Origin: Psilocybe cubensis
Taxonomy: Eukaryota
NCBI GenBank assembly: GCA_017499595.2
Contig: CM039009.1
Coordinates: forward strand, 62,001 to 126,000
Length of the DNA: 64,000 nt
Reading direction: 5' to 3'
In this document: one piece after another, positions 13,908 through 64,000 of the stretch
Layout: each line of letters begins with the position of its first letter
Numbering within the stretch: position 1 is the first letter of the stretch
Position numbers and translations under genes: made by a program
Notes under the pieces: generated by a model
Told to the model about the DNA's origin: nothing
Databases searched by the model: none
Seen by the model: only the letters and a program-made list of their open reading frames with translations

Positions 13908-13968
<61 letters not shown>

Positions 13969-45620: not shown

Positions 45621-45965
45621 AGTGCTGTCTGCAGTATGTTTCCAGATGTCCTCAATCCTCAAAGGACTTCAGTGGGTAGAAATAGGGAGGGAATGTCTTG
45701 AGGGCGCCAGATCTCAGATAAGGTGCTGACAGCTTAATCTGCAATGGAATTGAAAAAATAAAGTGAGTATCTCCGGCAAGATGGGCGCTAATTGAGGACA
45801 GGACGGACCGACAAGACTGGAGGCGAATTTTTGTTTAGAGGAAGAGGCACTCTGGGAAGAATCCTTTGGAGTTTGGGCGGTGGTGAGCGGAAGATGAGCG
45901 AGAACGACTTGATTCTGCAGAGATGAGATGGATGGAGGGATATGCAGTAGGTGACGATGATACAG
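45230..45965 (-). repeat. Tandem partial duplication (~435-bp period) of the cyclin 5' exon/intron
   Basis: AAAATAAAGTGAGTATCTCCGGCAAG.TGGGCGCTAATTGAGGACAGGAC occurs at ~45321 and ~45756; there is also a second ILQTALCYLEAIRPKVPKI copy at ~45575-45645. Confidence 0.85.
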
Positions 45966-46112
45966 TGTGAGAAAGCGGGACTGGTGAGAAGCGGCTGTTG
46001 ATATTGATCCGAGTCGTCTTTGTGTACAACGAGGCCGGCGTGTTGGGTGATAATTTGAGTGGCAATGTGCATTAGGGATTGAAAACTTTGTGGGTTTCCT
46101 GAGGTGGATATG

Positions 46113-49100
46113 TTATGATGACAGGGCCAAATAGAGTTCTTTGTCAAAATATTTGTTTAATCGGAACTCGGTGCTAGTGGAATGACTGTTATGTGTAGTA
46201 AGGCTTCGCCTTGCCTTCTCGCCCATCTGAGGGACCAGATCAACCAGGGAGCGTATTTGATTCAATGGTAAAATTCCACCCATAATGGTGTTATCTGTAC
46301 GTTGACTTCGTTTTAATTTATACATGCCGGTTATTGGCTCTGGGTAAGGTCCACGGATCGCAGAACCTAGAGACTGTGGCTGATTTAAAACCTCAAAACG
46401 TTGGACGTATGCGAGAAATCTTCCAGTAATATCGGGAGACACAGTACTGGGTGTCTCTCCGACAATGCGAAAAATAATACGAATGTTGACGACAGAATGG
46501 CCTACAATATTGGCTGGTCAACGGGGTTCGGAAAAAAGTCACAAAGAAGTACTACCTTGAAGCCCGCTGCGAGGCCACTCCTCAGATTCATCCACGTTTA
46601 TGATTGCTGAATCGAAGTATCCAAAAGGATGTTTGTTAGATGGCGGATATGCATTAAGTGTGACTGCCTCCAGGATCTCATGAGGGTATTGGTACGCAGT
46701 CGACTGTATACGGACCTTATGCCATACCTCAAGTTTTGAATACGGCAACGGACAACCGGGAGGAGAAACACGCCTGCCAGTTATCCCCTTGATGTGATAA
46801 CCTCGAGAATTGGTCTGTCTCGGATTTGATTCCTTATTGATGAGTGACACATAATCGGCAATTGCTGGTCGTAGGTCGGGAATTTTAAAAATGCTCGCAA
46901 CCTCGTCGATATGCAATCTTTTGGAACTAGCATCCCTAGATAAATGGGCAACAACGTTTTTGCTGCAAGAAAATGTTCTGTAGGGGACTGGGCCTTCCAA
47001 TACGCCACGCTCATAGAGACTAGCTTTGTAGAAGTAATCCACAATGCGATTGGACTTTGCTGATTGAAAGGTTGTCATCGGCATGATTGTTGAAAGAAGT
47101 TCTGACGTTGTGTCCATCACAACCTCGCCGTTTTCCTCCCCCTCATCCCCCTCCTCCTGCTCCTCCTCATCCGTAATTGTTGCAGAGTGTATAGCCCGAA
47201 AATCAATCCTCATTTCTCGTATAGCTGTAAACAAATCGAAATTGCGCAATTTGTCACGACGATCAAGGTATCGACAAACTTGAGGCTCGTATCTTTGATT
47301 ATTGCTGGAACTGGAAGGGGCTTTGACCACCTCGATATGTGCATGCTCTGTCGTGTCTGCAGACCATTGGATTGCACATCCATTTAGTCTAATTGCGTGT
47401 ACTACACTTTGCAAAAACTCGAGTTTTGGAATATAGAAATTATCGATTGGGTTGTTTTTTTTACCTCGACGTGCTCCCGCGTCAAGGATGGCTTGTTTAT
47501 TGGCATGGAAATCTTGCAGTGCCTGCTCAATTCTGAGACACATTGCCTCGGAGATTGTTTGAGATTGTGCGAGATACCGAAAGTCCATCAGAGACCGGAT
47601 GGCTAAGATAAAGGGTGTACTGACTGTGTCTGCAATGAGAGCAACAATGTATCGCTGAACGTCCCGATGTTCCCTACCGGTCACTTGTTTCAAGGAAGAA
47701 ATCCCTTCCTTGAAGTGTCGGAAACCAGTGCGGTGCTGTAAAATCGAAAATCGAAAATCCAATTCGGAACCTCCGACTGCAGCAATGCACCATTTTGCAT
47801 CATGATCCCAGAACATCTTGTGCCAGTGATGAAGGGGTTCAGGCGTAAGGAATGCAGAAGGATCAGACAAGGGCCAATCTCTCCAAAACGGTAGGTGAAC
47901 CCCATTGAGACGGTGCTTTTTGCTTTCTTTTAGATATGGTTCGAGATGATTAGGGGGCTTAACATTGTTGATGGCCATGATGGTGTTGATTGTATGATCT
48001 GCAGTTCGGGAAGGGTGGCGAAAGGAATCCCCAAACGTCTCGTATTGTGCCAACGTCACAGAGGATGTGGATCCTGCGACGCAAGCCGCCAGAGCAGATT
48101 CTGGAGTATCAACGATAAGGGCAGCAAGCGGTGTAAAGCAGAAACGATTATTCCCCAATGCATCTGCCATGGTGGTTCCCACCCTCGCAGTTTGTTTGAC
48201 CGATTCTAGAGCAATGTCCATGCACTGGTGATATAGCCGTGCTGCCATCATCCCATTCACAGCTTTGGAGCGATGAAGAAACTTTGGTATGGGAAGAAGA
48301 ACAAAAAGAAGGAATAAATGATTTGACGATTTGTTTCTAACGTTCATCATTATGTTGGCAATGCTGATAAGGCCAGGGTAGGCGACACGGCCTCCGGTCA
48401 TGTTGGAAATGTTGGTTTTATCCGTGGAAATAATAGGAGGTACAAGTGTTGCTCCTTTTGGGAGCTGGTCCTTGGGAACCTTGTTATACTGTCGTCAAAC
48501 TTGGACAAAGGCATTGCTACTAACCTGCATAAAATGCGCAATGTCACCGCTAAACCACTCAGTGTATACCCGCATCATCTCGTTGCACTTGTCGAAGAGC
48601 TTGAATGGGCTAAAGTGCATGCTATCTTGGAGCAAGGGACTGATGAGAAGCGCCTTGATACATTCCAATCCATCGCGGTAAAAAAGCGTTAGCTGATTTT
48701 TGCTTGGTATTTCTGGTATAATCGTTTGACTCTTCCACTGCGGACCAGAGGGAAGGATCTCTGCCCGGTTGCGTAGATCTTTTGCCGACTTGTAGGACAA
48801 GTTGAGTTTTTTTATCTATACGGGATCGACTCAGCTGAAATAAATAATGATGGGAATGTACGCTCAATTACCAGTTCAAGTTTCAAAAAATCATTCAGCA
48901 TTCCTACGCTCATGTCAGAGCGAAGTAGGAACAGGGAGAGCTCCCATTCATCTTTCGAGGCAAAAGGATAGTACAAATTTTCCGCCCGCTGGGGTTCGAA
49001 TTGATCCTGTTTGAGCTGATCCATGAATGTAAGGCCTGTTCCAAATGCTCTTCCAGCCCCGTTATAATCCTCCTTCACGTACGGATAGTTGTATTTTGAT

Positions 49101-49417
49101 GCCTTGGGGGGTGGGTCATCTTCCATCTCTGATGACGCGCCAAGAAAATTGTCAATATAGTCCACTTCCATAAAATTACCAATTTCGGGAGAAGGGTCTC
49201 GAGATACGGGGGTTGCTGATCTAGATGTAGAGCTTGAACGATTGGACTGAAAATGCATAACGTTCTCATATTGAAAACAACATGCCGATTTTGGTTGATT
49301 GATGTGATTTTGGACATCTGCATGCTTAGCAAATGGCTTGTTGCATCGAGGACAACGCACACAGATTTCCTGAGTTCTCTTGCCCTTGCCCTTTCCCATG
49401 TTGAAACAACGACTCAT
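46113..49417 (-). CDS. Plavaka-type (CACTA/EnSpm-related) transposase, multi-exon
   Basis: N-terminal CPRC..H..C zinc finger, YYPFASKDEWEL, LSYKSAKDLRNRAEILPSGPQW, LFYRDGLECI, RVYTEWFSGD, GATLVPPIISTDKTNISNMTG, IVDTPE, PEPLHHWHK, WSADTTEHAHI. No stops in the exons. Confidence 0.9.
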
Positions 49418-49888
49418 ACAAAAGCGAAGATACGAAAAAAAAACTGATAATGTAATGTTCAGTAACGTGCAGTGGGTCTATAAATGTTATCTGATTATGT
49501 CTCCGTTAATACAAACAAATTTCACATGGGTTAGTATTCAACCAATCCGTAGTACAATCCAAGGAGGGCTTCGGAAGAGCTTTACTGTATATACGCACCA
49601 GAACAAAGACACTAACACATTTTTTGAAGTGGGTGGAAGAAGCATCAACAAACGTAAGTTAGTTGATTTCATTGACCTTGATGATAAATTCAAACGCACA
49701 GCAGTTACAGTAAAGCCAGAAGCTTTCATCCCAGCGAGTATTTGCGTATTGGTCTGGCGATACGAGCAGCACACAACTACAGATAATAAAACAATCGTCA
49801 TTATGTTACAGGACATACACGCCTTTCAGTACTAAATAAAACATGGCATGTATGTAAATCAAGATGTGTGTCAATGTGTTGTACAATA

Positions 49889-52800
49889 TCAAAGTCGCCG
49901 TCGTTTAGAAGGCGGAACAGACTCTGATTCTGATGAAGAGATAAGCATTTGCGACGTAAAGGCATAATCGAACACACGTACTCGGATTTGTGCTCTCCAG
50001 CTTGACTTTCATGCCATCCAGATACAGTTTATCCCTCACACTCGTACCAAGTTCCAGAATCTCCTTGGGAGTTCCTAGTTTGTGACGTGGTTAGTGAATA
50101 TCCAAAGGCAGACACTGGTCCACCTACTCAATTGCGTTGAGGAATCCGCACAGGCATCACAGTCAATGAGAGTGATTACGGGTAACTTGAGCATCTTTGG
50201 GACCGAGGAACGAGGAAGCTGGTCGATACTGCGACATATAACCTTGTTCAATTCTCCGCTGCAGACGCCCTGAAGCTGGACAAAAAGCAAACTGGTGTCG
50301 GTACAGCAAGGGGCACCACCAATGTTGTTATGTTTGGCTTCTGCGTCGTAGGCTAGAATCATACGGGCATAGCGGCAAAGTATCATTTCATGGAACTTTT
50401 CTGTCGCCATGATATTTTGTGCATCCTTGTTTTTGTCCGTCTCAATCATGTAGTGGATGGACTTCGTGCGATGACATAGCCACTCTAGAATAGCCAAGGC
50501 TTCGCCACGGGCAAAGATGCACGCCTTGCGCTCTTCGTCGCTCAGGCTGTTGGTATCCCACCGCATCCATGCGTCTAACTGTGCCGAAGTCTTGGTGGAG
50601 AACATCTGATCGGGATTTCGATAGGTCTCGTAGTCGAGCGCATTTGCCAAGATCATGCACACGCACAGAGCTATCAAGCTCGAGTATCCGGACTGCGTAC
50701 TGTAGAATGGGACATGGTACATTTCATAAAAATCTGAGAGAAAATAGAAGAAAAGAATCAGATATCTTGTAGGAAACGGTAAAAAACCTCATACCTTCTG
50801 GGTCGCTGTCACCTTCAACCAAAACCTTGTAGAACCAATGTATGGTTTGCTGCAGGAAAAATCGGGACGTTGAATGATTCGTATTCGTTGCCCTGTATCC
50901 AGCGGTAAAACAGTGAATGATTCCTGTCAGGGTTTCTTCGAAGGAAGTGGAGGAGTAAAAATGTCCGCCACGGCAAACCACTGAGGAGATAGAATACGCC
51001 ATATGTAGAGTATTCGGTCTCATGAAGCTGTTTTTCAAAGTAGCGTCAATATAATCAAATGGGTAGGACATTCAAAAATCACATACAGTTCTGACTGGTT
51101 ATCGAGAACAATCGCCTCGTAAATCCAGTCTTGGTGGTGCGTTTCCCCGTAATCCAGCTTGTCTCCTAGAAATACACGGCGGTCAGAAGAAAGGTCAACA
51201 TCCAACCGTCTGGGATACATGATAATCCACAGCTTCAGTCCATGAAGAGGTTGGATGAAGGAACAGAAACCATTGGCATCGATATGGATATCTGAAAATG
51301 CCCCCTCTGTAGCTACGAGTCCCCATGACATATCACCAAATGGGACGGGGGTACTATACTTCCAGCTACCAGATGTAGCCCGAAGAGCAGCCGCCTCAGT
51401 ACTCAAGTCAAAAGAGTGAGCGCCTGCATGAGGTAAAGGGATGTCGAGGGCATTGAGGATCTTTCCTCTTTTGCCTTTCATCCTCGCTGCTTCCATGACC
51501 TGAGAGAGGGACCCACGCTTAATCCTCTCGATGGGGTTAGACGACATGGTCGACATATCTGTTACGGCCATTAGCATGAGACGCAGAAAGAAAAATCAAA
51601 ACATCGAAGAGGAAACACACCTTGGATTGACCTGGTGCTCGTCATATCACCCATATGGCGACGTACCTGGCTGTAGAACTCGTCGGAGCAAGTTGAAATA
51701 GACTCCTCTTGAGAAGGAGACATAAGGACGACGTTCCTTTCAGAGAAAGACTCCATCAGATACATGGATTTCGTGGTGCTGCGGTCGAATACCGCAAAAC
51801 ATGATTCTTCGGGACGTGCTATGTGCAATGGAACTCCATCGACGTAGTCACTCTCGACCAATTCCAGAACCCTTTCAATACGATCCACGTCGGCTTGACT
51901 CTTGTTTGGAGAATAAATAAATGACGAAAAAATCAATATCGAGAATGACTTACATGGGCAACAACGCAGAAACTTTTAAGTTGGCCACGACCGTTGTAGG
52001 TGGACCAAACTTTGGTGCCATACACCTTCTCCGGAGTGCTGACGACATCAAGGGTGGTGTTGCTGTCGTACAGATCGACATCAATACACAGGTCGTCGTC
52101 CGAATCAAATGTGTCGGTAGCCTGCGTCGGCTTGCGTTTGGGAGGCCGCTTGGAAAGGCCCTGCCGGCCCTTCCCTTTCCCTTTCTGAGAGGAGTCAGCC
52201 GTGGTGTTTTTGCTCCTGTTTATCTGGGAAACAGGAGGAATCCTCAAAATAAGAGGAGCAGGAGGTGCGTTCTCCCCCTCCTTTTCGCCTTGGCTGTCTT
52301 CCAATGTATTCCTCTCCATGTCTGAGGAATCATTGTTTTGCTCTGGGCCTACCCCCTCTCCATCGACCGACATTCTGTCCTCCTGGACTGGTGGAACATC
52401 CCCTTGCCCCTGCTTCTCGGTCTCATTGTCCGACGAACTGTCGTCTGGCCTTTCCTCCTCACCATCTTCTGACATTCGGTTCTCCTCGTCGGGTCGTTCT
52501 CCGTCTTGCCCCTGCTTTTCGCCCTCGTGAACTTCCGACATACGATTTGCCTCGTCAGAAGACCCTTCAGCTCCTTGTCCAGCCCCGCCGTCTCCCAAAT
52601 TTTCTGGACCATTGGTATGTGGACCATCCTCTATTTGATGGTCGACATCAGCTTGCTCCGGATCGACGTTCATCTCACAATCCCCTGCAGTTGAGGGCCC
52701 AGTATTCTCAGTCTGAAGTAGACCAGATCCAATATCATCACTCCGCGGCAAACCAGGTTGCTCGTCCGTGGGCACATCCTTGCCAGCCACCGAAGATGTG

Positions 52801-54452
52801 TCTTCCGGAGGCTGTATATCTGAGGTAGGGACCGTATTGTCCCCGTTCTCCTGTTGACCCATGCTGACATCCTTGCCAGCCACTGAAGACGTGTCTTCCG
52901 GAGGCTGTATATTTGAGGTAGGGACCGTATTGTCCCCGTTCTCCCGTTGACCCATGCTGACCATTTCCGTCGTGTCCACTTCGTGATCATCGTCACCCTC
53001 CGCGTCTGCGTCGGACCCTTCACAGGTGGTTTTTTCACCATGATGGGAAACGGTCTGAAGTTGAGCTGTTTTAAACGGATTTAAATCATGTAATTGACGC
53101 AGACTTTGCTTATAACTTACCGTGTGGTTCAGTGCTGCGCCTTGCTAGGTTAGAATTTGCTGTAACCTCGGCGCTGCTCGTTGACGCTGGCCAATTATTA
53201 GTTTAAATTGTTATTTTGTTACAGTACGTAGAACACACATATGAAAAAGTGAAACGCGGGATCTTGTGCAATTACCCGCTCGCATTCCATCCAGCAGTCT
53301 GAGATAACAAGTTTATATAAGGCTGACTGGATGTCGCAATTTTGCGCTGCAATGATTTTCCAAATTTCCATCTCCACTTCACGCAGAACACGGCGGCGAC
53401 AATTACCGAGCGCTTTTGAGGCCTAAAGGAGTGCGTTAATCCAAGTTAAACTGGGAGGATGTGGATACACCTACTTTAAGCAGCTGCTCCCGGTCACATT
53501 TCTTAGAATACCAAGATTTATTCACAAAAAGAAGGATGGGGGATATGAAAAGGGCGACATGCAGAGGAATTTTTAAATGAGATGGCGTGACCTCTGAGAG
53601 GAACAACGCAGCATCAGGATGGCCGCTTGCACTAGGGTATGTTGAGCAGATTGTATCAATGAATAGAGGAAAGAAAACTTACTAGAGATTTGCAAGAGTA
53701 GCCGTGTCCGTTGGAATGTCTGGTAGAACGTGTTCATCGTCCTTCATACCGCGCATTCCTGACAAGATTTGGTAGTGTAGCGAGGCGCAGTACACATTCC
53801 CGATTATTTTCCCCACAACACCCTTGAAGTGGTTACGCGCCAGACAGAGTAATAGCGTTGATTCCGAGGGCCCGCCCTGGGTGAAAGCGGATGACGGCGT
53901 GTCACTGATAGAAGGGGTGTTGATGTTTCTGTGCAACTTAGAGTCGGCTCTGAGGATGCGCTTCCTGGCAGAGCAGAGCATTGCCGGCCAGTCCTTCAAG
54001 TCATCTACAAGCTACAATAATTGTTTGAAAATTAAGAATTAACATTGAGTGACTTCATGATCGCATACCTTGAACCGTGAAAATATTTCCTTAGTTCCTG
54101 TGCTGGCCTGTATTTCATTCAGGGGCACGGTCACCGGCAACGATGGTCCAAAGGCTGCTGGCCACAACGCTACGAGATCGAGTAGACGGTATGCTGCAAA
54201 TAAGCTACCCGCCTGCTCCCATGTAGCCGAGGTTACGCAGGGTGTCTCTACGATGCTGTTCTGAAGGGCAGCCAAGCTTTGCCTATACTTGATGGCCGCT
54301 CGCATGCTCGATGATGAAACATCGTAATTCAAAAAGGTGAAGTCCTCATATCGTCGGAGGAAATCCACCATCCTCTACAGAAACTTGATATTAGTACCAT
54401 AAATGGCAATCCAATTAAGACCTACGCGGAGTGGGTGCGACTCTGGCAACAT
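49889..54452 (-). CDS. Large multi-exon JmjC-domain 2-oxoglutarate/Fe(II) dioxygenase with acidic disordered linker (element cargo)
   Basis: WGLVATEGAFSDIHIDANGFCSFIQPLHGLKLWII (HxD) and FMRPNTLHMAY...CRGGHFY (distal H); 93-bp internal tandem repeat at ~52775-52960; C-terminal PSKRRRL NLS-like. The exon joining and the 5' end are inferred. Confidence 0.75.
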
Positions 54453-54741
54453 GTTTTCCAGAGTCTGACGAACGACCTGCGTTTCGAAGGGAAACGCCAG
54501 AATTTCTTCAGCTTGGAGTCGGGCAACGGGGGAAATCTTCTGGGCTTGCACTACAAAACTTCAACGTCTCACCCTGCATTCTATTTCTTTGGGTACTTAC
54601 TTTTTTTTGTGTGTTTTTTTCTGGTGTCTCAAATTTTCAACTAGATGAATTTTAACTGAACGAAAACTATTATAGAGTGTCTAGAGTATTGTCTATGTCT
54701 ATTTTATTAGAATGTATGTTAAATCTATGGGGAGGGGTACT

Positions 54742-55008
54742 ACGCTATGACGAACGGAAAGAAAAACAATCAAGTTGGAAACACACTATTTCCGGAGCGA
54801 TTCTTTAGGGTAGGTTTCCCGTCCTGAAGTCACGAGTTGGTTAAAAAAACGCCCCCTTACATCAGCCGCATCACGGTGATGCGGCTGATGTAAGGGGGCG
54901 TTTTTTTAACCAACTCGTGACTTCAGGACGGGAAACCTACCCTAAAGAATCGCTCCGGAAATAGCGTGTTTCTCACCATATGTTTTCTCTTTCCGTTCAT
55001 CATAGCGT
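54742..55008. repeat. Long perfect palindrome centred on 54875
   Basis: 54786-54874 is the exact reverse complement of 54876-54964 (89-bp arms, 1-nt spacer: CATCAC-G-GTGATG); degenerate pairing continues out to 54742/55008. Confidence 0.95.
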
Positions 55009-55112
55009 CTTATCATAGTAATAGGTTGTGTAGTATCTAAAAATAAATTATCACAAGTTAAGATGATAAATTAAGTGAGATGAACATCGATTAACAGTCT
55101 TTAAGACCCACA

Positions 55113-57472
55113 ATGTCTAGTTATAAACGCAGACGACTTGACAGCCTAGGCAACCGCACAGTGTGTACTAATCCAACCCTCCATCTAATCACTAACTTCA
55201 GGGAAATTTAATTATGATCTCAAAAAATCAGGACATTAATCCCTTCATAGACATTGAAGCAGCGGTTTCCGATGATGATGAAAGTTCGGAAGAGCTTGAT
55301 TATGAAGGGGGCCAACTACGTATGTTCCAATAATTTACATATATTCTGCTCAATATGTACTGATGCTAATGGGTTCTGACATACAGTGAATGATAACGAT
55401 GAATACTCTGAGGATGAGGAACGTGTTGCACACTCTCGGCTATATCATGCCATGCAAAATACAGATAACGCTGATGAATGGAGCGATTTGTTGCCCATGC
55501 TTCTGCCTTCACGCATGAAAATTCGTCCTGACAATGATATAGAGCCATCTAGTTCACGAGAACTTATACAGAAATATGGCAATCCCCAACCAGGAGGACT
55601 TGGTGATAATAATTATATGCCTTCCGCGACTGATATCATGTATGAAATAGGTTGCAAGGTACGCAAAAATAATATAAGTCTTCAGTCAGCATTTATTGAT
55701 CACCTTACGAGTGATAGGTTGGACGCGAAGAGGCCGTCGCTTTCAAAATTATGCAGATGTCAACGAACCCTACATTTCCCATCATCCTTGCCCGGTCTGT
55801 CTTCGCTCAATCCTCAATTCCTGGGAGAATCTACGTCGAGGCGCCATCAATGCAACATGCGCATACGTTAGCCTGCCTCGTTAGAGAGCTTAATCCGACA
55901 CATTTAGTTAGGCTATCCTTGGAGAGATGTATGGAGATCCTATCTCATCCCCCACCCTCACGCCCTGAAGACCAATCGTGGGTCAAGGTTGCTGGAAAGC
56001 GTAAGGCTTGGACGACCTACGCAAATGCTACCGGCCTTGTGTTCACATTCCAGGGTCGGAAAAGTGTTGTTCTTATCCCCAGACCTCCGGACAACATCAA
56101 GAAATCGCACCTCGACAGGATATTCCAGGATGGATTTATTATCACGGATTTCGACGCCATCGATCTCAAATATCTTTCCAATGTCCTCCCAACATCGTCC
56201 GAGTTGGAGCAATTTTGCGAGTGTCCATTTGTAACGACGGAGACCTTAGCGCAAGCCTCGAAAGCCATCTCCATGACTCGACTGAAACGATATAATCGAG
56301 TCAAAATTATTGGTGGAGAATACTTAGGTCTTTTTGGAACGGTCAAGAGTGTTTCTGACGCTGAGGTGGAAGTGCACATCCCCTCCCAAGGTATAACACA
56401 AGCAGTTGCACTACACGATCTACGTGCAGCTTTCCAGATAGGCAATAGTGTTGAAGTCGTTGAAGGGGATCACAAAGATCTCCATGGATGGGTGTCAGAC
56501 TTTGATGGAAGATCTGTTTGTATTATCGCCCCAGAGCACGAACGCGAAGTAGGTGAACTGTCATTCTCTTTGTCTCAGTAGTGTTCAACACATTTTTCAG
56601 GTCATTGTGCCCATCCACACAGTCATATTCTACGTCCCCCCTGCCCATGCTACTCTTCGCCCGCGAAAGCGTCATTCGTCAAAGCTTGGAGAAAGAGACC
56701 ACAACGACGTCTATATAGGTTTGAGTGTCATCGTTGTCGGGAATAATACATTCAAGGGGTACTATGGCATCGTTAAAAGCACTACCCCCGACGGCTTTGC
56801 AGACGTTGAGCTGGAAGCTCGTAACCAGAGGGTGGAACGTATTAAAATATCACATTTAATTATACAGTATGTGGTTTCACTTGATTCGTTGACTGTCAGG
56901 TGCTTACTGACATTGTTTCAAGCAACCGAGAACATATAAATTCCGCTCAAGACCCCGGGCCTTCTGGTGGAGCAACTCCAATGCCGTCCACAGTAGCAAG
57001 TTTTCTGTCTCCTGCATGGAATCCGTATTCAGCAATACCTGTACACTCGGCGGTGGAAATCGCAGAACTACCCTCAACCGTCGCTCACTGGCTAGATACG
57101 AAATACGATAAGCTGAAAGGATTACGATTAAAAGTCGTAGACAAATCCAAGGGCGACCATCAAGTGGCGATGGAACTTCTCAGCCTTACCGACGATACTG
57201 CCCACCTAGCATTACTGGGACGTACACTGACATTACCGAAATCAGTGTTGTTTCCAATTCATCCTGTAAAAAAGGACGACTTCGTTACACCGCTTGAGGG
57301 CGATTCAATGGGGATTATATTCAGGATACGATCAATAGACAAGGATATTTGCGTTGTACATAAATATCCCGTTACTCGTATGAAACGCGGTGATACATTC
57401 CCAACTTTTCCGACAACATCTTTGATTCAAATCTTCCCCCCGTCCCGTGGTGTCAAAGTTGTAAATATGTAG
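55113..57472 (+). CDS. Spt5-like NGN + multiple-KOW protein (element cargo), multi-exon
   Basis: KRRR...INPFIDIEAAVSDDDE acidic N-terminus, YEIGCK/VGREEAVAF and SVFAQSSIPGRIYVEA (NGN), KOW motifs RVKIIGGEYLGLFGTV, SVEVVEGDHKDLHGWV and SVIVVGNNTFKGYYGIV, plus GATP...SPAWNP. Confidence 0.8.
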
Positions 57473-57639
57473 GGTGCAGCATTACTTGTATCTCGAACAC
57501 GGACTTGTAGACATATACGGGTTTTATGTCATTCTATTTAAGTGTATTTCGGCAATCAACAGTGCTAATGGTTCGTAATGTGTTGATCGTCTTGAACTTA
57601 AGCCACCACCACCACACCAAATTGTTGCCTATCTTTATC

Positions 57640-57995
57640 ATGAACCATTCCAATAGCAACAACGCTTCGCAACCTCAAAGTCGCCGCCTCCCTAGCATAC
57701 CCGAAGAGGCAGAGTTCTTCGTTTTAGGTCTATTTTCATGTTTTAATCCACCTTCCTCTAGAATCAAGGCATAGAGGCCGTTAAAAAGGCTCTTGACCAA
57801 TTTCAACTCACTGAACAGAGGTGTCTAGAAGTTCAGGCAGAGCTACGTTGTTATATGGACGACATTATGCGAGCATATAAATCCAATGAAGATCTTCTGT
57901 TTGAAACCCAGCTCGAAATCGCCCGTCTACGGGTATCCCTCATTAGTCGGGGAATACCTATTCTAATGCACCCTCAGGATAATCCGCGATCATGA
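57640..57995 (+). CDS. Small coiled-coil hypothetical protein (element cargo)
   Basis: MNHSNSNN...IPEEAE plus a downstream frame GIEAVKKALDQFQLTEQRCLEVQAEL...; the splice junction is uncertain. Confidence 0.4.
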
Positions 57996-58266
57996 TAGGT
58001 GCAGTCTTTTCCCCTCTGAGATGTAACTTTACTTAACTCTAAGTAGGACATGGAATCTGACTATAATGTATATGTGATATATTGTAGTAGATAGGGGTAC
58101 TGTTTCAGTACCTGTAATTTCTATATGGCACGATATATTTTTGACTGATGTCCGTCGCCTTAAATTTTGAAAAGAGGCTAATTTCGCATACCTCCGGATC
58201 GTAGCTTGACATAATTCACCACCCCTTATCTCTATTTCTGCATTACAACCGTCAAACCAGCCCAAT

Positions 58267-61008
58267 ATGCCACCTAAAGGATCCAAAAAGAAAAAGGCGG
58301 TTGTCAATGCCACGGTTGAAGGTATCATCTATATATCCTCATTACATCCGCATACTTAATGTTTTATCCATCTAGGACAAGAGGTTGAACAGGGTCCGAG
58401 CTCCGTGGCAGAAAACGAGCCACCTCAGGCTCCTGAAGCAGGTCTGTACTAGCATTTTCTTTGTTGAGATTCACTGAACTCCTTATTAAAAAGACCCCAA
58501 TGGCCGTCCTATCCGAAGCACCCGTGGTCTTGGTGGAGTAAATGCTCGGCAGGAGAAAACATCTAACATCATTTTTATTGACTTCGAGAAGGCTGGGAAG
58601 AGGAAGTCAAGGGCCGCCAATGTGGATACTAGCGCCATGCCTGAAAATGAGATGGCGCCTCCCTTGAAGAAAACTCGCAATGGGGTGAGTCTACTGTTCT
58701 AATCTTAAATTTGCTATCTTCCAAGCACATCTAGGTTACCGTTGTGCCGCATGTAGGTCCCCCTATTCAAATGCAACCAAGGCCAACGCCTTCAGTTGCT
58801 CCTTGGGATGTCCAACAAGTCCAACCAAGCCCACGACAATCTCAGGGTGCCCCCCCTCCTGTCCAGATCCAACGTGCAGCTCAGAGAAATCAGGAGCACT
58901 CAGAGCTTGATCATGCTGTCCAAAGACCCACTGCCCCCATCCAGCGCCCCGCTGCTCCGGTACAACAGCCAGCACATCCTGTCCCGCGCCCCGTACAACA
59001 TGCAGCACATCCTGTCCCGCGCCCTGTACAACACGCAGCAAATCCTGTTCAGCGTTACGCTGCCCCTGCGGTAGAGAATTCTGTCCAATACTACGATGCC
59101 CCCGTACAACAACCAGTGCATCCTGTAACACAACATGCCCCCATACAACAGCCAGTGCATCCAGCAGCCTATAACGCCCACCAAGAGGCTAGCATCAGCC
59201 ATCAAGACGAGGAGGAGCAACAAGATTACGAAGGCATAGAGCAGGAGGAAGATGAGGAGGAGGAAGAGGGGGATAGTGACGGTGAAAGGCGATCTGAGGA
59301 AGCATCAGGGGACGAATGCATGCAAGGAATTGATGAAGAGAATATTGGGGATGAAGAAGCTCTCCAATATGTCGACGGTGATGAAGGTTACGACGACGCG
59401 GGTCAAGATGATGAAGAGCCTGCTGCCCAGCGTTGGTTTAACTCCACCTTTATGTCGTGTTTGCTTACCACCTATGTTTGACAGTGGTTGATGAAGTTTC
59501 CGATGATGAAGAGGAGAGGAGAGCAAGGGCATTGCTCCGCCAGCCTTCCCCCCATGTAATCATTTCTCTGCTGTATTTAATGTCTAGCTAATGTATTATT
59601 GATATAGGTTGTGGAAGTAGAGGATGTTCTTCAAGAACACCGTCGTCGTAATCGGGCGAACAAGCCACCTCGCCCTGAGGCATTGCGCAAGGCGGCTGTT
59701 TCGCAAGGAGCCGTATCCCAAGGTTTGACAAGGGAGAACAACGAAGCATCTGACGATGATGAGGTGCTTGGTGAGGCACACATCGCTCATAAGAAGTCCA
59801 GTACTTCTTCTGCTAGGGAAGTATCCAAGCATTCAGTTGCATCCTTTACTGGTTACTGGAAAGATGTGCTCAAAATTGCACGCAAACTGATGTGCCTGTA
59901 TGTAGTAGAGGAGGTCCCCTTTCCCACTCGGGAAAATCACTTATTAGTCGCCGATGGATGTGTGAAGATGGCAGTAACCGTGTTTGAAAGAATGAACACG
60001 GATAAAGTGTTGCCTGATAGTAAGTTCTGTCTTCTGTGATTTTAGTTAATTGGTTTACATAACTTTGCAGAGAAAAAAATGCTCCTAGACAGGAATACCG
60101 CCGTAACGGTATATTTTTAGCGTGTTCTTTTAAGGATATCGTACTAACGTGTCTGTTCTCATTAGGCATTTGTCTACGCGTCAACCTTCCGGGGAAGACT
60201 GAAGACGATGATCAGACCCCTGGTCAAAAATGCGTATGGCCTCGAAGTCCCGTCGGAGGTCATCGCCGCGAACCCCAATATGTTTGAAAATCAGATGGGG
60301 GAGATCGAATACATCAAGGACAGGGTAGCATATTGGCTACTCAATGGTAAATACCACCGGGGTGTTGCCAAAACCCGAGTGAGTTCGCCGTCCATTTTAC
60401 CTGGCTTACCACTCATTGATTTGTTTCCAGTATCACGATGTCCCATTTGGACATCCTTTTGTGAAGAAGATCTGTCTGGACTTCTTCTACCATCCTACAA
60501 AAGGGGTTGCAGTCCCCATCAAAGGTCTGGAGACAAAGACGGATTTCTTCAAGACATCGCTTCCCCACAAAGCATTTGCGCTTGTGGCCAGTTGTGTAGT
60601 TCTGATTTCTCTCCTGCTATTGGCACTGCCTTGCTAACAAGCATTTTGCTGTAGATCCACAACTGTCTTGAGGAGTGGAGGGATGGGATTGACCCTGCAA
60701 GAGGTGGTCCGTGTTCGGGTATTGAATTCAAGGGAGAGGAGTACTCCCTGAGGTATGATGCCTGCATGTTGGTTGCAGCAGAGGCAGAGAAGGATACCTT
60801 GAACCAAGGTCCTCGCTTGGCTCGCTTATGTAGGGAAGTGGCTGAGGAAGGATGGTGTGTATCTTTTTTTATTCATTTCTTTCTTTGCATCATTTAGATC
60901 TCCATAATCAGTGCTATTATGAGGCCTACGAAGAACCCCCCCAACCCTTATAGGATGACTCTCCATTCTATCCCACAGGAGGAACTAGATTACGGTCCAG
61001 AAGGGTAG
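58267..61008 (+). CDS. Multi-exon nuclear protein, probable DUF6532-type, with P/Q-rich and acidic regions (element cargo)
   Basis: MPPKGSKKKK start, PVQ/HPV repeats, then YWKDVLKIARKLM..Y...EVPFP, STFRGRLK...RPLV..AYGL, PFGHPFV, FALVASC/IHNCLEEW.DG; many GT-AG introns. Confidence 0.7.
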
Positions 61009-61276
61009 TTGGGTGAATGAGCGGGGCAGCTGCCGGGTGTGGATTAGAAGATACCATATTTAGATCGTCACGTATTAATAGTTATGCATCTACTAATAGA
61101 AACATGTTTGGTCCGATCCAAACATAGATTATCTATTTTTAAAATTGCCCATTTTAGTCAAAAATGGTTCGGTTTTCAGTGTGATATTGGCACTTGCAGG
61201 AATAGCCACACAACACTATACAAATGAAAGTGGATACTATATATGCCTTTGTACCTATTTGCAGTGTGTTATGATG

Positions 61277-61368
61277 TGCTACAAATCTGTGGTAGCATGC
61301 TACAAATCTGTGGTAGCATGCTACAAATCTGTGGTAGCATGCTACAAATCTGTGGTAGTATGCTACAA
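61277..61368. repeat. Subterminal tandem array, 4.4 x 21-bp TGCTACAAATCTGTGGTAGCA
   Basis: Units at 61277, 61298, 61319, 61340 and a partial one at 61361; each unit is itself TGCTAC...GTAGCA. Confidence 0.9.
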
Positions 61369-61594
61369 TTTGTATGTCAGTTGTATACAGAGGGGTATGG
61401 ACCATGGTAAGCATGCTACACGCCGCTACACAGCACTCGCGTTACAATACAGATCACTACAGAGTACCATGTCACGTTGGTACCAAGCTACAGGTACATC
61501 AGTGTGTGTTACCCAAATGGGACCGTTACTATGGGCACTACAGAATTACGTATCACTACGGATCATTACCTACTTGGCCCCGGTATTGCTGATG

Positions 61595-64000
61595 CATACG
61601 ATTTCTCTAAGGTAACTGTAAGTTTTACGGGCGCCTAAATGTGCCAATAGACAATGAGCTTCCATTATCACAAACTCACGGATAGATCTGCCTTCTTTAG
61701 TGCGTACATTAGGTACACATAAGACTTCTCTACCGTCCTGCTTGAGATATAACAGTCCAGACGATTCATCAAGCCTGAAACTCTTGAATTCTTTAGGTCT
61801 CTCAACAATAGGTCGAAATAACACATCCTCAACATATCTATTATTTATTTCATTAACAACATTTATACCATTGAGATCCTCAAATACATTCATTGGGTCA
61901 ACATCAGGCAATGTGAATGCGGGTGTAGTATCATGATTGCAGACCAGTTCCTGGTCAGCAATACTATCTGTTTGGGTACCCGTATCAGTCTTGCCTTGTC
62001 TAGGAGGTAACCGAATGACTAACCTTTCATTTTGTTCCGCAGACACGCCCTCCGTTCCTTCTTTTGGTGACTTAACTTTAATTAGGCCACGCATACGAGC
62101 GGCGAACTCGTCTGAAGTCTCAGGCCGTCCCGTTTCGGCACCTTCACGTTCTCGAATCCGTTTTGATCTCCGTCCCACAAAGTTTGGGTTAAGCGCCGAA
62201 CATTCCGCTTCCAAACCAACCAAGACAGGGTGCGTTATCGCACTCAATGTGACTGCCATTGAATCCCCATTCTCTGGTGAGTCATACTCAGTGTATTCCG
62301 ATGCCGAACGGACTGTTCCTGGCGCATCATTGGAGTAAATCCTGGATAGCGCATCACTAAGAATATTTTCTGTTCCCGGGACGTAAATAACCTCAAAGTC
62401 AAACATCGCCAGTTGTTCCAGCCACCGAGCACGCCTTCCGCTGCTAGCACGATCAATATCTCGATGACTCAAGACTGTAACTAATCCCTTGTGATCTGTA
62501 AACCAACGGAACTTCACACCAAGTAGTAAGTCCCGGTATCGCATCATAGTCTCTAACCCAGCTAACATTTCGGCTTCGTGAACTGGATAGTTCTGCTGCG
62601 CAGGTGAGAGTTTTGCCGAGTAAAAGGCTGCAACTGGTGCAGTCTTCCAATCCTCTCCCTGACTGATGACGCCAGCTATGCCAGTAACACTGGCATCTGT
62701 TATAACATTGACTGGTGGCGCTCCTTTTGAGTAATCAAGCGGGCGCCTATGGTGATTACGAAAAGCGCTTGCGCGCTGCTTTATCTCATCAAATGCACGT
62801 TGGTGAGTGGGTTCCCACCGAAAGGGAACTTCTTTACTCGTTAAAGTGTGTAGAATTCCCATCGGAATTCGCACACTCTCAATATCATCCGCAAGATAGC
62901 TTGCCGCACCTAAAAATCCACGCAATAACTCGCGATTTGTGGGTGTTTTCCACTTCAGAAGTGCGTCAACTTTATGCGGGTCCATTTGGATGCCCTCATC
63001 GTCGACAATCCGGCCTAGTATCTTGACTTTCTTGCACAGGAAGTCTAACTTGTTAGCTGATAGATAAAACTTCTCTTTCTGTAGCACATCTAAAACAATT
63101 AAAACATGCTCGATGTGTTCTTCCAGAGTGTCTGAATATATTACTAAATCATCAAGGTAAGGGTCCATAAATTTGCCAATGTATGGAGAAAAAATATGAT
63201 TCATCAGTGACTGAAATGTTGCAGGTGCATTACAGTCCCCTTGCTGCAATACATGCGAAACCATGTTTCCATTGGGTGTTGAAAAAGCCGTCTTCCACAC
63301 ATCAGCAGGTTCGATTCGGACTTGCTCATATGCATCTTTTAAATCTATTAAACTACGATACGGTTTACTTGATACTCGTCTCATGATGCCGTCGATGTCC
63401 GGCAAAGGGCTTGTAAGTTTCCTTGTATTATTATTACGAGCTCGTAGATCTATAACAGTCCGCAGCTTTGCCGGCTCTCCCGGTTTGGCAGGCTTTGGAA
63501 TGAACATCATAGGTACGGTATTCCTTGAATTTGTAATTTCCCACCGTCCTGTTCTAATGTAATCACTTCGTTTCTCAACCCACTGGGGCATGAATGCCTC
63601 GGGGCATCGTGACGGGCGCCATGGGTACTGTACTTCATCGTTTATTAAATCTATCTTATGATTAATTGCTCGAAGAGGTGGTAACGGGGTCTCAGCGGCT
63701 GTTTTACACAGCGGCGCGGCCTTATGTTTCAAGAAGTCTCGAACCTCGTCGAAATTTTCTTCCCTAATCCGAGCTGCTCTTGATTGTAAAGTACGAACGG
63801 CAGATCCTTTAATTGGTAACGCCGTGTTGCTACCAATAATTACTCGAGTTGGATTAAACCCAACTAAAGCTTGATGCTGGTACATGAATGGAGTACCCAG
63901 GATCAAGTCATAGCTGGATAAGTTAATTATATCAAAGGCTCTAACCTCATTGACGCCTTGATACGTCAGTTGGGCGCTTGTTTTATAATTTACCTTCGAT
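61595..64000 (-). CDS. pol: Gypsy pol, 5' half: end of protease, RT, RNase H, start of integrase zinc finger
   Basis: LILGTPF, RTVIDLRARN, LIDLKDAYEQ, QQGDCNAPATFQ, YLDDLVI, ITDASVTG, QQNYPVHEAEML, FTDHKGL, NILSDALSR, EAHCLLAHLG; the ORF runs off the window end. Confidence 0.95.

What the first reader, a model, noticed from the sequence alone, without database searches (positions are those of the whole stretch)
55113..57472. Transposon-borne Spt5-like (NGN + KOW) elongation-factor derivative
Seen: Spt5 architecture (acidic NPFIDIEA N-terminus, NGN motif PGRIYVEA, at least three KOW motifs, one TP/PAW remnant), but strongly diverged and lacking the long CTR. Established: Spt5/NusG governs polymerase processivity, and specialised paralogues such as bacterial RfaH and plant SPT5L/KTF1 act on particular loci or in silencing. 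Inference: an element-encoded paralogue could promote elongation through heterochromatic or long transposon units.
Basis: partly seen in the sequence, partly recalled or inferred. Interest (0 to 1): 0.78.

Follow-up and report, generated by a model that had tools for sequence, protein, structure and literature searches.

The report
Transposon-carried compact Spt5 paralogue
A mushroom jumping gene of the Plavaka type carries, beside its transposase, its own intact but slimmed-down copy of Spt5, the universal helper of RNA polymerase II, which suggests that the transposon tampers with how the cell transcribes it.

Summary
Window 55113-57472 (+) is an intact six-exon gene for a 684-aa Spt5 paralogue. 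It has an acidic N-terminus, NGN, KOW1, KOW2-3, a KOW5-like domain, one CTR-like unit (SPAWN) and a KOW6-7-like tandem. It lacks KOWx-KOW4 and the CTR array.

"Transposon-borne" is shown. The gene lies inside an 18,274-bp insertion (43321-61594) with PlavakaB termini CATCAG..CTGATG and a 2-bp duplication CA. The insertion holds a complete Plavaka transposase and splits a Ty3/gypsy integrase in frame. A public read set holds the exact empty site and the element's ends joined to other flanks, at higher depth.

The protein belongs to a large diverged family: 268 cluster representatives, and the 15 named family members plus the near-identical hit come from 8 Agaricales species. The family branches apart from canonical Spt5. 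Metagenome relatives give dN/dS of about 0.3.

The function is inferred, not shown: it probably docks on Pol II in place of host Spt5, for the element's benefit. No RNA evidence was obtained. This copy differs from the other copies at four codons, all missense. No paper describing this was found, but earlier notes of this scan report the same family in this genome.

The parts
43321..61594 (.). PlavakaB-type DNA transposon, 18,274 bp, which carries the Spt5-like gene
   Evidence: It has CATCAG..CTGATG termini and a 2-bp duplication. Removing it restores a gypsy integrase frame. A contig of run X1 joins 43318 to 61595. Loose ends at 43320 and 61594/5 lead into other flanks.
43319..43320 (.). Target-site duplication CA, left copy (the right copy is at 61595-61596)
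   Evidence: Read directly. In the joint, two letters fit both sides.
43321..43335 (+). Left terminal inverted repeat CATCAGTAAATCCGG
   Evidence: 12 of 15 bases match the reverse complement of the right end. The termini fit PlavakaB as defined by Kojima 2025 (PMC12730594, passages).
61580..61594 (-). Right terminal inverted repeat (reads CATCAGCAATACCGG on the minus strand)
   Evidence: Its first 9 bases equal the start of the Plavaka-11_AB consensus in Table S1 of PMC12730594.
61256..61381 (.). Subterminal array of a 21-bp palindromic unit, inside a right-end cluster of GCTACA motifs
   Evidence: Five listed copies in register at 21-nt spacing. 8 of the element's 9 GCTACA motifs lie in its last ~1 kb.
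46542..49477 (-). Plavaka transposase gene
   Evidence: Plavaka PF18759 positions 1-99 (E 1.1e-16) and 103-325 (E 6e-64), plus DUF6830 (E 3.8e-45). The in-frame stop at 48495-48497 lies in a short GT..AG intron.
54742..55008 (.). 267-bp near-perfect palindrome, about 100 bp upstream of the Spt5-like start codon
   Evidence: Arms of 133 nt, 92% complementary. DNA fold -148.4 kcal/mol, z -31.9. Its centre reads CATCAG..CTGATG flanked by TA on each side.
55113..57472 (+). Spt5-like gene: six exons, 684 aa
55232..55658 (+). Acidic N-terminal region (exons 2-3), including NPFIDIEA at 55238-55261
   Evidence: D+E make up 22% of residues 1-137. Spt5_N is weak (17.5 bits). The motif aligns with the N-terminal FxxxEA motif of human and S. 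pombe SPT5.
55718..55957 (+). NGN domain (protein residues about 137-216; PGRIYVEA at 55820-55843)
   Evidence: Pfam Spt5-NGN 24.3 bits, the structural model and the alignment to human SPT5 NGN.
55979..56287 (+). KOW1 and the following linker helices
   Evidence: Strands and helices of the model. The family profile aligns with human SPT5 KOW1 (WVRLKRG..IPRIDY).
56288..56548 (+). KOW2 and KOW3
   Evidence: Pfam KOW, KOW5_SPT5 and KOW2_Spt5 hits at exon-4 residues 194-224 and 242-277. Foldseek match to 4ytl, the KOW2-KOW3 structure.
56748..56834 (+). KOW5-like domain (exon 5)
   Evidence: Pfam KOW5_SPT5 28.7 bits. The family profile aligns with human SPT5 from residue 704 on, the part the Pfam KOW5 hit corresponds to.
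57008..57022 (+). Single CTR-like unit SPAWN in a disordered linker
   Evidence: Tryptophan stands at this aligned column in 20 of 29 rows, and [ST]PAW[NDE] in 13 of 29. Canonical Spt5 hits have 2-5 such units. It aligns with the S. pombe TPAWN repeats. pLDDT is about 50-60 here.
57077..57448 (+). C-terminal tandem beta-barrel, KOW6-7-like
   Evidence: AlphaFold 10-residue block means of 92-97 from exon-6 residue 61 to 170. The best Foldseek match is 5ohq, human KOW6-KOW7 (E 8.9e-6).
58735..60651 (+). Downstream element gene(s): a Pro/Gln-rich and acidic ORF, then a DUF6532 match
   Evidence: DUF6532 at E 7.2e-5, 23.2 bits, just under the gathering score of 24. It lies on the same 6,364-nt contig as the Spt5-like gene in X1 and X2.
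41068..43320 (-). Ty3/gypsy integrase, downstream half of the split pol gene (the host site)
   Evidence: rve, SH3_Tf2-1 and Integrase_H2C2 positions 34-58. The frame continues across the empty site.
61595..63999 (-). Ty3/gypsy RT-RNase H and the start of the integrase zinc finger, upstream half of the split pol gene
   Evidence: RVT_1, RT_RNaseH and RT_RNaseH_2.

Best explanation
Shown: the gene is an accessory, non-transposase gene of an autonomous, recently amplified PlavakaB DNA transposon of a Psilocybe-type mushroom. It encodes a compact Spt5 paralogue from a large, old family. The family is kept by selection, its named members are all from Agaricales, and it is distinct from canonical Spt5.

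Inferred mechanism: the protein keeps the parts of Spt5 that sit on RNA polymerase II.
- NGN and KOW1 lie over the clamp and the DNA.
- KOW2-3 and KOW5 are kept.
- The acidic N-terminus is kept.
- The KOW6-7 tandem is kept.

It has lost KOWx-KOW4 and all but one CTR unit. The CTR array is the platform that recruits host co-transcriptional factors. The protein therefore most likely takes the place of host Spt5 on elongating Pol II and changes what the elongation complex does. The likely beneficiary is the element's own long, multi-gene, methylation-prone DNA: read-through and processivity, or escape from co-transcriptional silencing. It would thus be a eukaryotic, transposon-borne counterpart of the specialised bacterial NusG paralogues such as RfaH.

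How it would be aimed at the element is unknown.
For: Gene and fold:
- An intact 684-aa spliced frame.
- Pfam NGN and KOW hits above the gathering scores.
- AlphaFold pLDDT of 89.9 and 82.4.
- The best 24 Foldseek matches of exon 4 are SPT5 chains in Pol II complexes. The C-terminus is most like human KOW6-7.
- The family profile matches human SPT5 at E 2.2e-90 (N-terminal motif, NGN, KOW1-3, then from human residue 704 on). Most human residues of about 500-617 stand as insertions against the profile, and about 618-703 and the CTR are skipped.

Carried by the element:
- TIRs, a 2-bp TSD and in-frame restoration of the gypsy integrase.
- A contig with the exact empty site, and other flanks at both ends. 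Depth is about 550-690 over the element against 78.5 for the empty-site contig in X1. One 6,364-nt contig spans the gene at the element's depth.
- No inner inverted repeats that would mark a nested insertion.
- A complete transposase.

Family and selection:
- 268 representatives at E <= 1e-3.
- 15 named family proteins from 7 Agaricales species, plus P. cubensis. Several genomes hold several paralogues that fall in different 50%-identity clusters.
- 100 of 110 tree rows form one clade (support 98) apart from canonical Spt5.
- All 8 metagenome loci with the whole exon keep the big exon open, and dN/dS is 0.28-0.43 at dS 0.14-0.35.
- The single CTR-like unit and the C-terminal tandem are conserved across the family.

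Link to other mobile DNA:
- One Agrocybe gene model fuses a family member to a Tet_JBP match. The score of 29.3 bits is below the gathering score of 34.9.
- Locus L011 has a Helitron_like_N ORF about 5 kb from a fragment of the gene.
- Metagenome copies share a multi-kb repeat with one sharp common boundary.
Against: - No test of function or binding was possible.
- In the NGN motif G-Y-I-Y-V-E-A of canonical Spt5, the first Y is R here. Across 29 rows it is variable (R 10, W 9, S 3, Y 2). As I recall, this position lies in the polymerase-binding patch of archaeal Spt5, so polymerase binding may be altered.
- A protein without a CTR array cannot recruit CTR-dependent factors. From what I recall of fission-yeast work, that could favour silencing rather than oppose it.
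- The window's copy differs from the majority copy at 4 codons, all missense. Two turn the KOW 'GD' into 'GN'.
- The other genes of this element are not shared with the metagenome loci that carry relatives. The gene is therefore not tied to one element type.
Confidence: 0.6

Rival explanations
1. Transposition adaptor. The Spt5-like protein rides on Pol II and binds the transposase or another element protein. This would couple excision or integration to transcribed or paused DNA, as some retroelements use polymerase-bound factors to choose targets.
For: The KOW6-7-like tandem and the single CTR unit are conserved and would be free for a partner. The gene travels with a transposase. Relatives lie near other transposon genes, Helitron_like_N in L011.
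Against: Relatives occur with different neighbours, so a specific transposase partner is unlikely to be general. The one insertion site seen is inside a retroelement, not an obvious Pol II pause site.
Confidence: 0.14
2. Silencing-type or interfering paralogue. Like plant SPT5L/KTF1 or Paramecium Spt5m, it would serve non-coding transcription that feeds small-RNA pathways, as copy-number self-control or a domesticated host defence. Alternatively it would act as a dominant-negative that blunts host Spt5 functions.
For: Specialised eukaryotic Spt5 paralogues known so far act in such pathways (Spt5m: PMC5416832 and PMC8934623, search listing and abstracts only). The family profile also matches Arabidopsis RDM3/KTF1 in the Pol V complex 8hyj (E 5.6e-45). 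Loss of the CTR array fits an altered, not a normal, elongation complex.
Against: There is no Argonaute-hook: one GW dipeptide in 684 aa. The match to canonical SPT5 is much stronger than to KTF1 (2.2e-90 against 5.6e-45). Being carried in many copies by a mobile element fits a gene that serves the element better than one that serves the host.
Confidence: 0.13
3. Functionless passenger. A host SPT5 duplicate was once captured by a transposon and is simply copied along and decaying.
For: All 4 differences between this copy and the majority copy are missense. 19 of 24 differences over the element run G:C to A:T in the window copy, 12 of those 19 at CpG, as expected for a silenced, methylated copy. 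The deposited P. cubensis model P0001 stops at 329 aa.
Against: The frame is open over six exons with all splice sites intact. The architecture is kept at 25-40% identity across about 100 cluster representatives. dN/dS is about 0.3 in the relatives. Family-specific features are conserved. Four changes are too few to tell relaxed from purifying selection.
Confidence: 0.08
4. An ordinary host gene that merely lies in transposon-rich DNA and is not part of an element.
For: The region is a patchwork of retroelement and DNA-transposon sequence.
Against: The gene lies between matched TIRs. It is absent from the empty-site contig, has the element's depth, and sits on one contig with other element DNA.
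Confidence: 0.02

Closest known systems
Canonical eukaryotic Spt5 (large subunit of DSIF, partner of Spt4)
   Same: The same order of parts: acidic N-terminal motif, NGN, KOW1, KOW2-3, KOW5, CTR motif, KOW6-7. The profile match to human SPT5 is E 2.2e-90 and to S. pombe Spt5 E 2.7e-82. Structural matches are SPT5 chains in Pol II elongation complexes.
   Different: - 684 aa against 966-1042 aa for the full-length canonical hits looked at.
- No KOWx-KOW4.
- One CTR unit against 2-5 in the canonical hits counted.
- The first tyrosine of the NGN motif GYIYVEA is replaced.
- Multi-copy and transposon-borne.
- A separate clade in the tree.
Plant SPT5L/KTF1 (RDM3), the Pol V partner in RNA-directed DNA methylation
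   Same: A lineage-specific Spt5 paralogue beside the canonical gene, tied to transposon biology. The family profile matches it at E 5.6e-45 (8hyj_W).
   Different: KTF1 is a host gene with a long WG/GW Argonaute-binding tail (recalled). The protein here has one GW, is encoded by the transposon itself, and is closer to canonical SPT5.
Paramecium Spt5m (development-specific Spt5 paralogue)
   Same: A specialised Spt5 paralogue connected with transposon-derived DNA and non-coding transcription (PMC5416832 and PMC8934623; search listing and abstracts only).
   Different: It is a host gene of a ciliate and acts in genome elimination. No sequence comparison was made here.
Bacterial specialised NusG paralogues (RfaH and relatives, some plasmid-borne)
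   Same: By analogy of role, these are extra copies of the universal NGN-KOW factor that act on horizontally acquired or long operons and oppose silencing (PMC7593976 and PMC7819879; search listing and abstracts only).
   Different: They are two-domain bacterial proteins aimed by the ops DNA signal, with a fold-switching KOW. Nothing of that kind was tested or seen here.
PlavakaB DNA transposons (CMCT/CACTA-related; Kojima 2025, PMC12730594)
   Same: The carrier element has the defining termini 5'-CATCA..TGATG-3', a 2-bp TSD and a Plavaka transposase.
   Different: The cargo described in that paper is a TET/JBP dioxygenase. 'Spt5', 'KOW' and 'NGN' do not occur in its held supplementary file, nor 'Spt' or 'KOW' in its main text. 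This element has no TET/JBP match.

Membership tests
Spt5/NusG superfamily | NGN domain | tested here: met
   Pfam Spt5-NGN 24.3 bits against a gathering score of 22.4. Model and Foldseek matches to SPT5. Alignment to human SPT5 NGN.
Spt5/NusG superfamily | One or more KOW domains after the NGN | tested here: met
   KOW 29.1 bits, KOW2_Spt5 43.7, KOW5_SPT5 31.6 and 28.7, all above the gathering scores. The C-terminal tandem is most like KOW6-7.
Canonical Spt5 orthologue (host DSIF subunit) | Array of CTR repeats | tested here: not met
   One [ST]PAW unit, against 2-5 in five canonical hits. No Pfam CTD hit, whereas canonical hits have one.
Canonical Spt5 orthologue (host DSIF subunit) | KOWx-KOW4 module | tested here: not met
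   No KOWx hit, and only a sub-threshold generic KOW4 score of 13.7 bits. In the alignment of the family profile to human SPT5, most human residues of about 500-617 stand as insertions and about 618-703 are skipped. Canonical hits do have KOWx and KOW4.
Canonical Spt5 orthologue (host DSIF subunit) | A host gene at a fixed locus | tested here: not met
   It lies inside a mobile element with an empty site and other junctions. It falls in a clade apart from canonical Spt5. The host's own SPT5 could not be searched for.
Canonical Spt5 orthologue (host DSIF subunit) | Binds Spt4 and the Pol II clamp | not testable with these tools
Canonical Spt5 orthologue (host DSIF subunit) | Acidic N-terminal region (Spt5_N) | tested here: inconclusive
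   17.5 bits against a gathering score of 24.2 on the 41-aa exon frame alone. The motif aligns with human and S. pombe N-termini. D+E make up 22% of residues 1-137.
Plant SPT5L/KTF1-type silencing paralogue | WG/GW Argonaute-hook repeats | tested here: not met
   One GW and six tryptophans in 684 aa.
PlavakaB transposon (the carrier element) | Termini 5'-CATCA..TGATG-3' | tested here: met
   43321 CATCAG.. and ..CTGATG 61594. The definition comes from PMC12730594.
PlavakaB transposon (the carrier element) | 2- or 3-bp target-site duplication | tested here: met
   CA on both sides. The empty-site contig has it once.
PlavakaB transposon (the carrier element) | Plavaka transposase | tested here: met
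   PF18759 covered at positions 1-99 and 103-325 of 325, plus DUF6830. No phylogenetic placement within PlavakaA or PlavakaB was made.
RfaH-like specialised NusG paralogue | Recruitment by a DNA or RNA signal in the target unit; fold-switching KOW | not tested
   No signal was searched for. The resemblance is one of role only.

The most novel reading that the evidence does not exclude
Large DNA transposons of mushroom-forming fungi encode their own RNA polymerase II elongation factor. This compact Spt5 would displace host Spt5 on polymerases that transcribe the element. It would build a CTR-less elongation complex that reads through 18-kb and larger methylated elements and escapes co-transcriptional silencing. 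That would be a eukaryotic analogue of RfaH-type anti-silencing, and part of a transposon 'epigenetic toolkit' alongside the TET/JBP dioxygenases that related elements carry.
Probability: 0.3. Interest if true: 0.85.

Novelty: new variant of a known kind. Interest (0 to 1): 0.64.

Why it matters
Spt5/NusG is the only transcription factor shared by all life. Its known specialised copies are host genes (plant KTF1, ciliate Spt5m) or bacterial paralogues that protect foreign operons (RfaH). A eukaryotic transposon that carries its own Spt5 would show that mobile DNA can reach into the core of the Pol II elongation complex.

It also offers a natural minimal Spt5, without KOWx-4 and with a single CTR unit, for asking what those parts do.

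This window makes the case directly testable. It holds a complete, young, multi-copy element with exact ends, an intact transposase and an intact Spt5-like gene, in a species that can be grown and edited.

In the searched library, no paper held any of these term sets:
- Spt5 with Plavaka
- Spt5 with Kyakuja
- Spt5, transposase and Agaricomycetes
- Spt5, transposon-encoded and fungi
- Spt5, 'DNA transposon' and mushroom

. The founding paper on these transposons (Iyer et al. 2014, PMC3918813) could not be read. It may already mention the linkage.

Tried and rejected
- Whole-genome search: no genome is held for this window. Copy number, other copies and the host's canonical SPT5 could not be examined directly.
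- RNA evidence: no RNA holder was listed. The two runs guessed to be RNA laid nothing on the element. This says nothing about expression.
- Protein word-index searches: the 'longer' search with exon 4 found nothing. 'near' found only P0001.
A six-row alignment then gave 11 loci, all of one close sub-family.
- Synteny: tblastx of the element and of the whole window against those loci, and tblastn of all stored proteins against the window, found nothing shared beyond the Spt5-like gene.
- Pfam on 46 neighbouring ORFs of those loci gave only the Spt5-like gene itself (3 ORFs) and one Helitron_like_N. No transposase could be tied to that sub-family.
- Fusions: of 53 long hits scanned, 3 carry extra domains. 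These are one Tet_JBP and two RTC4 matches, all below Pfam's gathering scores. A fourth hit has weak WD40-type matches.
- No Spt4-like or TET/JBP ORF was found in the element. 31 ORFs of 70 aa or more were picked from the 89 listed and scanned, besides the larger ORFs.
- dN/dS among the element's own copies: only 4 differences in the gene, too few.
- Iyer et al. 2014 is not held. One paper search failed on a term with a slash and was rephrased.
- One search listed only the best 15 of 1,376 papers, so it could not exclude a Kyakuja+Spt5 paper. One search did.
Full report
**The gene**

On the + strand, 55113-57472 is a six-exon gene: 55113-55160, 55232-55319, 55387-55658, 55718-56548, 56601-56866 and 56923-57472.
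- The five introns are 52-71 nt and all GT..AG. At least two, as read, have a CTNAC-like branch site.
- The spliced frame is 684 codons with no internal stop.
- Exons 1-4 agree with a deposited model of a 97%-identical Psilocybe cubensis protein, P0001 ('NGN domain-containing protein'). That is an annotation pipeline's model, not RNA evidence.
- Exons 5 and 6 rest on homology: tblastx to metagenome relatives and the profile alignment to solved SPT5 structures.

**What it encodes**

Pfam gave Spt5-NGN, KOW, KOW2_Spt5 and KOW5_SPT5 on exon 4, and KOW5_SPT5 on exon 5. All are above the curated cut-offs. Spt5_N scored 17.5 bits, below its cut-off of 24.2, on the short exon 2. Nothing was found on the exon-3 and exon-6 frames.

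Structure prediction:
- Exon 4 was folded with a 79-row alignment and reached pLDDT 89.9. Its best 24 Foldseek matches in the PDB are SPT5 chains of Pol II elongation complexes (8.8e-14 to 2.2e-8). Next comes the yeast KOW2-KOW3 crystal structure.
- Exon 6 was folded with 27 rows and reached pLDDT 82.4. It has a disordered first 50 residues or so, then a confident tandem of small beta-barrels. The best match of that tandem is the human KOW6-KOW7 structure 5ohq (E 8.9e-6, TM 0.76 on the target).

A profile of the family matches human SPT5 at E 2.2e-90, S. pombe Spt5 at 2.7e-82 and Arabidopsis RDM3/KTF1 at 5.6e-45. The alignment runs through these parts in order:
1. the N-terminal F-x-D-x-E-A motif
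2. NGN (family PGRIxVEA against human KGYIYVEA)
3. KOW1
4. the linker
5. KOW2 and KOW3

Most human residues of about 500-617 stand as insertions against the profile, and about 618-703 are skipped. The alignment resumes at human residue 704, the part that the Pfam KOW5 hit of exon 5 corresponds to, skips the CTR and ends in the human C-terminal part (residues 994-1052), the region that the Foldseek match of exon 6 assigns to KOW6-7.

In the disordered linker sits one unit, SPAWN (57008-57022). It aligns with the TPAWN repeats of S. pombe.
- In a 29-row alignment, tryptophan stands at this column in 20 rows and [ST]PAW[NDE] in 13. Four of the 29 rows (P0112, P0119, P0126, P0128) later proved to be canonical-type; none of the four has the tryptophan.
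- Five canonical hits have 2-5 such units.
- The protein has one GW dipeptide, so it has no Argonaute hook.

The result is a compact Spt5: everything except KOWx-KOW4 and the CTR array.

**It is inside a transposon**

The ORFs on either side are two halves of one Ty3/gypsy pol gene on the minus strand. RT-RNase H and the start of the integrase zinc finger lie at 61595-63999. The rest of the integrase lies at 41068-43320.

Between them lies an 18,274-bp insertion, 43321-61594.
- It begins CATCAGTAAATCCGG and ends CCGGTATTGCTGATG. That is 12 of 15 bases as an inverted repeat.
- It is flanked by CA on both sides.
- Taking out the insertion and one CA joins the integrase frame exactly. The frame ends ..REIV on one side and goes on WWHS.. 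on the other, the expected H2C2 finger.
- These are the termini and duplication length that Kojima 2025 gives for PlavakaB (PMC12730594, passages read). The first 9 bases equal the start of his Plavaka-11_AB consensus (Table S1).
- The element holds a full Plavaka transposase on the minus strand (46542-49477). PF18759 is covered at positions 1-99 and 103-325 of 325, followed by DUF6830. The in-frame stop between the two ORFs lies in a short GT..AG intron.
- The right end has five listed copies of a 21-bp palindromic unit and 8 of the element's 9 GCTACA motifs.

**Independent confirmation from public reads**

Three runs of one study hold 95% of the sampled words of the gene region. Two of them were laid on 43000-62000.
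- Run X1 has a 3,272-nt contig that joins 43318 to 61595, with two letters fitting either side and no mismatch in the flanks. That is the empty site. Because the gypsy element is itself repeated, this contig may come from another gypsy copy rather than from an allele. Either way it fixes the ends of the insertion.
- At 43320, and at 61594/5, other contigs run from the element's ends into unrelated sequence: two flanks on the left in X1, another in X2, and one on the right in each run. The element therefore sits at other sites too.
- Summed word depth over the element is about 510-780 in X1, against 78.5 for the empty-site contig, and about 200-310 in X2.
- A single 6,364-nt contig (54943-61306) spans the Spt5-like gene and the DUF6532 gene at the same depth as the rest of the element.
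- No inner inverted repeat suggests a nested insertion around the gene.

**State of this copy**

The contigs differ from the window at 24 places in 18 kb.
- 19 are G or C in the contigs and A or T in the window. 12 of those 19 sit in an ancestral CpG and 7 in CpA. This pattern is expected from deamination of methylated cytosine in a silenced copy.
- Four differences fall in the gene, and all are missense: L204, C303, N329 and N379 in the window against S, R, D and D.
- The last two change the 'GD' of two KOW motifs, which the family consensus keeps.
- The copy is intact but slightly worn. Four changes cannot separate relaxed from purifying selection.

**The family**

A full HMMER scan of 1.84 billion cluster representatives found 268 at E <= 1e-3, 75 at <= 1e-10 and 9 at <= 1e-30. 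I looked up 30 representatives.
- 15 are named family proteins from seven Agaricales species: Cyclocybe aegerita, Agrocybe chaxingu, Panaeolus papilionaceus, P. cyanescens, Tricholoma furcatifolium, Arthromyces matolae and Tulosesus angulatus. P. cubensis adds an eighth. Several genomes contribute several paralogues that fall in different 50%-identity clusters.
- 5 are unnamed or mislabelled family proteins from metagenome or read-assembly data.
- 10 are canonical-type Spt5 of chytrids, Rozella, plants, a gregarine, or unnamed sources.

Typical full-length members are 650-800 aa. They have the same Pfam pattern and lack KOW1_SPT5, KOWx, KOW4 and CTD hits, which the canonical hits do have.

In a FastTree tree of 110 rows rooted on canonical Spt5, 100 rows form one clade (local support 98). 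Six canonical rows and P0119 lie on the other side. P0112, P0126 and P0128, which are canonical-type by Pfam, lie in between. The median end branch is 0.65 changes per column. This is a quick tree with long branches. It shows a separate, old radiation but not its origin.

**Selection and mobility in relatives**

A metagenome scan gave 11 loci, all of one sub-family, 82-94% identical to P0003.
- The 8 loci with the whole big exon all keep it open. Across the 28 pairs of loci, dN/dS is 0.28-0.43 where dS is 0.14-0.35, and 0.59-0.64 for two close pairs. Two near-identical pairs are uninformative.
- These loci are diverged copies of a multi-kb repeat. L001 and L008 are collinear over about 7.6 kb at 82-89%. 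Three different contigs come from one metagenome.
- Homology in all six loci aligned starts at the same base, upstream of the gene. Beyond that point L006 and L010 have flanks different from those of L001, L008 and L011. This looks like an element end but was not proven to be one.
- Their other ORFs have no Pfam match, apart from a Helitron_like_N ORF in L011. None resembles the other genes of the window's element.
- The gene therefore recurs in mobile, repeated DNA of more than one kind. This agrees with earlier, unchecked notes of this scan on the same genome: a Spt5-like gene beside a Helitron, and one inside a giant CACTA-type element.
- One Agrocybe gene model fuses a family member to a Tet_JBP match, and two models fuse one to an RTC4 match. 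All three are below Pfam's cut-offs, so they are only hints.

**How it probably works**

Shown:
- It is an intact accessory gene of a young, multi-copy PlavakaB element.
- It is a member of a selected family, known so far only from Agaricales, with the Spt5 fold.

Inferred from established knowledge of Spt5:
- In solved elongation complexes, NGN-KOW1 closes the cleft over the DNA, KOW5 sits at the RNA exit, and the CTR is the phosphorylated landing pad for capping and Paf1/Rtf1-type factors. This part is recalled, apart from what the entry titles show.
- A protein with the first set of parts but without the second should occupy Spt5's seat on Pol II and give a differently equipped elongation complex.
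- Because the element encodes it, the simplest reading is that it helps transcription of the element itself: 18 kb, several genes, and targeted by cytosine methylation to judge. It would do so by processivity or by evading co-transcriptional silencing. The closest analogy of role is bacterial RfaH.

Against this reading:
- The tyrosine of the NGN motif is replaced and variable in the family. As I recall, it lies in the polymerase-binding patch.
- A CTR-less complex might favour silencing.
- No targeting signal is known.

The rivals cannot be excluded with the tools at hand: a Pol II-to-transposase adaptor, a silencing-type or interfering paralogue, and a decaying passenger. They are weighted in the rival explanations.

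**Novelty**

Specialised Spt5/NusG paralogues are a known kind: RfaH and relatives, plant KTF1, ciliate Spt5m. A family encoded by eukaryotic DNA transposons is a new variant of that kind.
- The five literature searches named under 'why it matters' found no paper.
- The Kojima 2025 paper does not contain 'Spt' or 'KOW' in its main text, nor 'Spt5', 'KOW' or 'NGN' in its held supplementary file.
- Iyer et al. 2014 could not be read.
- Public databases carry the proteins only under automatic names.
- Within this scan the family has already been reported twice in this genome. This window adds the cleanest case: a complete element with proven ends.

Noticed in passing
window 54742-55008: A 267-bp near-perfect palindrome lies about 100 bp upstream of the Spt5-like start codon. 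Its arms are 133 nt and 92% complementary; the DNA fold is -148.4 kcal/mol, z -31.9. Its very centre reads CATCAG..(19 nt)..CTGATG, the same terminal hexamers as the element's own ends, flanked by TA on each side within CCCCCT-TA / TA-AGGGGG. It could be a 31-bp remnant of a Plavaka-type element in a palindromic site, a transposase-binding site, or a bidirectional regulatory region. Contigs of both read sets break inside it.
   Followed up: partly
window 43321-61594: The window's copy differs from the collapsed copies in two public read sets at 24 places. At 19 of these the window has A or T where the contigs have G or C, and 12 of those 19 lie in an ancestral CpG. This looks like methyl-cytosine deamination of this copy.
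   Followed up: partly
window 41068-43320 and 61595-63999: One Ty3/gypsy pol gene is split in its integrase zinc finger by the Plavaka insertion. The frame is restored exactly when the insertion and one CA are removed.
   Followed up: yes
window 21647-22312 and 32928-33571: Two 666-bp stretches about 11 kb apart match each other both directly (92%) and in reverse (86%). Each is therefore itself palindromic. They may be the ends of another foldback-type or TIR element that encloses ORFs without Pfam matches (27775-28980, 29521-30741).
   Followed up: no
window 8285-16800: A G+C-rich stretch (0.51-0.58) has strong negative AT skew (to -0.41), a 1,194-aa ORF (8285-11869, minus strand) without any Pfam match, and many long overlapping ORFs on both strands. 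It is probably low-complexity or repeat-coded sequence.
   Followed up: no
window 51936-53144 (minus strand): An ORF inside the element encodes an acidic, Ser/Asp/Glu/Gly-rich protein with a 93-nt tandem duplication (52774-52959). It has no Pfam match.
   Followed up: no
L001-L011, e.g. L001:653-720: The metagenome relatives share a sharp common left boundary (TTCTGCTTAGTCATAG..) followed by a small GTCATCA..TGATGAC hairpin. L001 has the first ~63 bp duplicated in tandem. L011 is a rearranged copy about 5 kb from a Helitron_like_N ORF.
   Followed up: partly
proteins P0151, P0152, P0160: Metagenome annotation pipelines name members of this fungal family 'ribosomal protein L24' or 'transcription antitermination factor NusG', because of the KOW motif. 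These labels are misleading.
   Followed up: no
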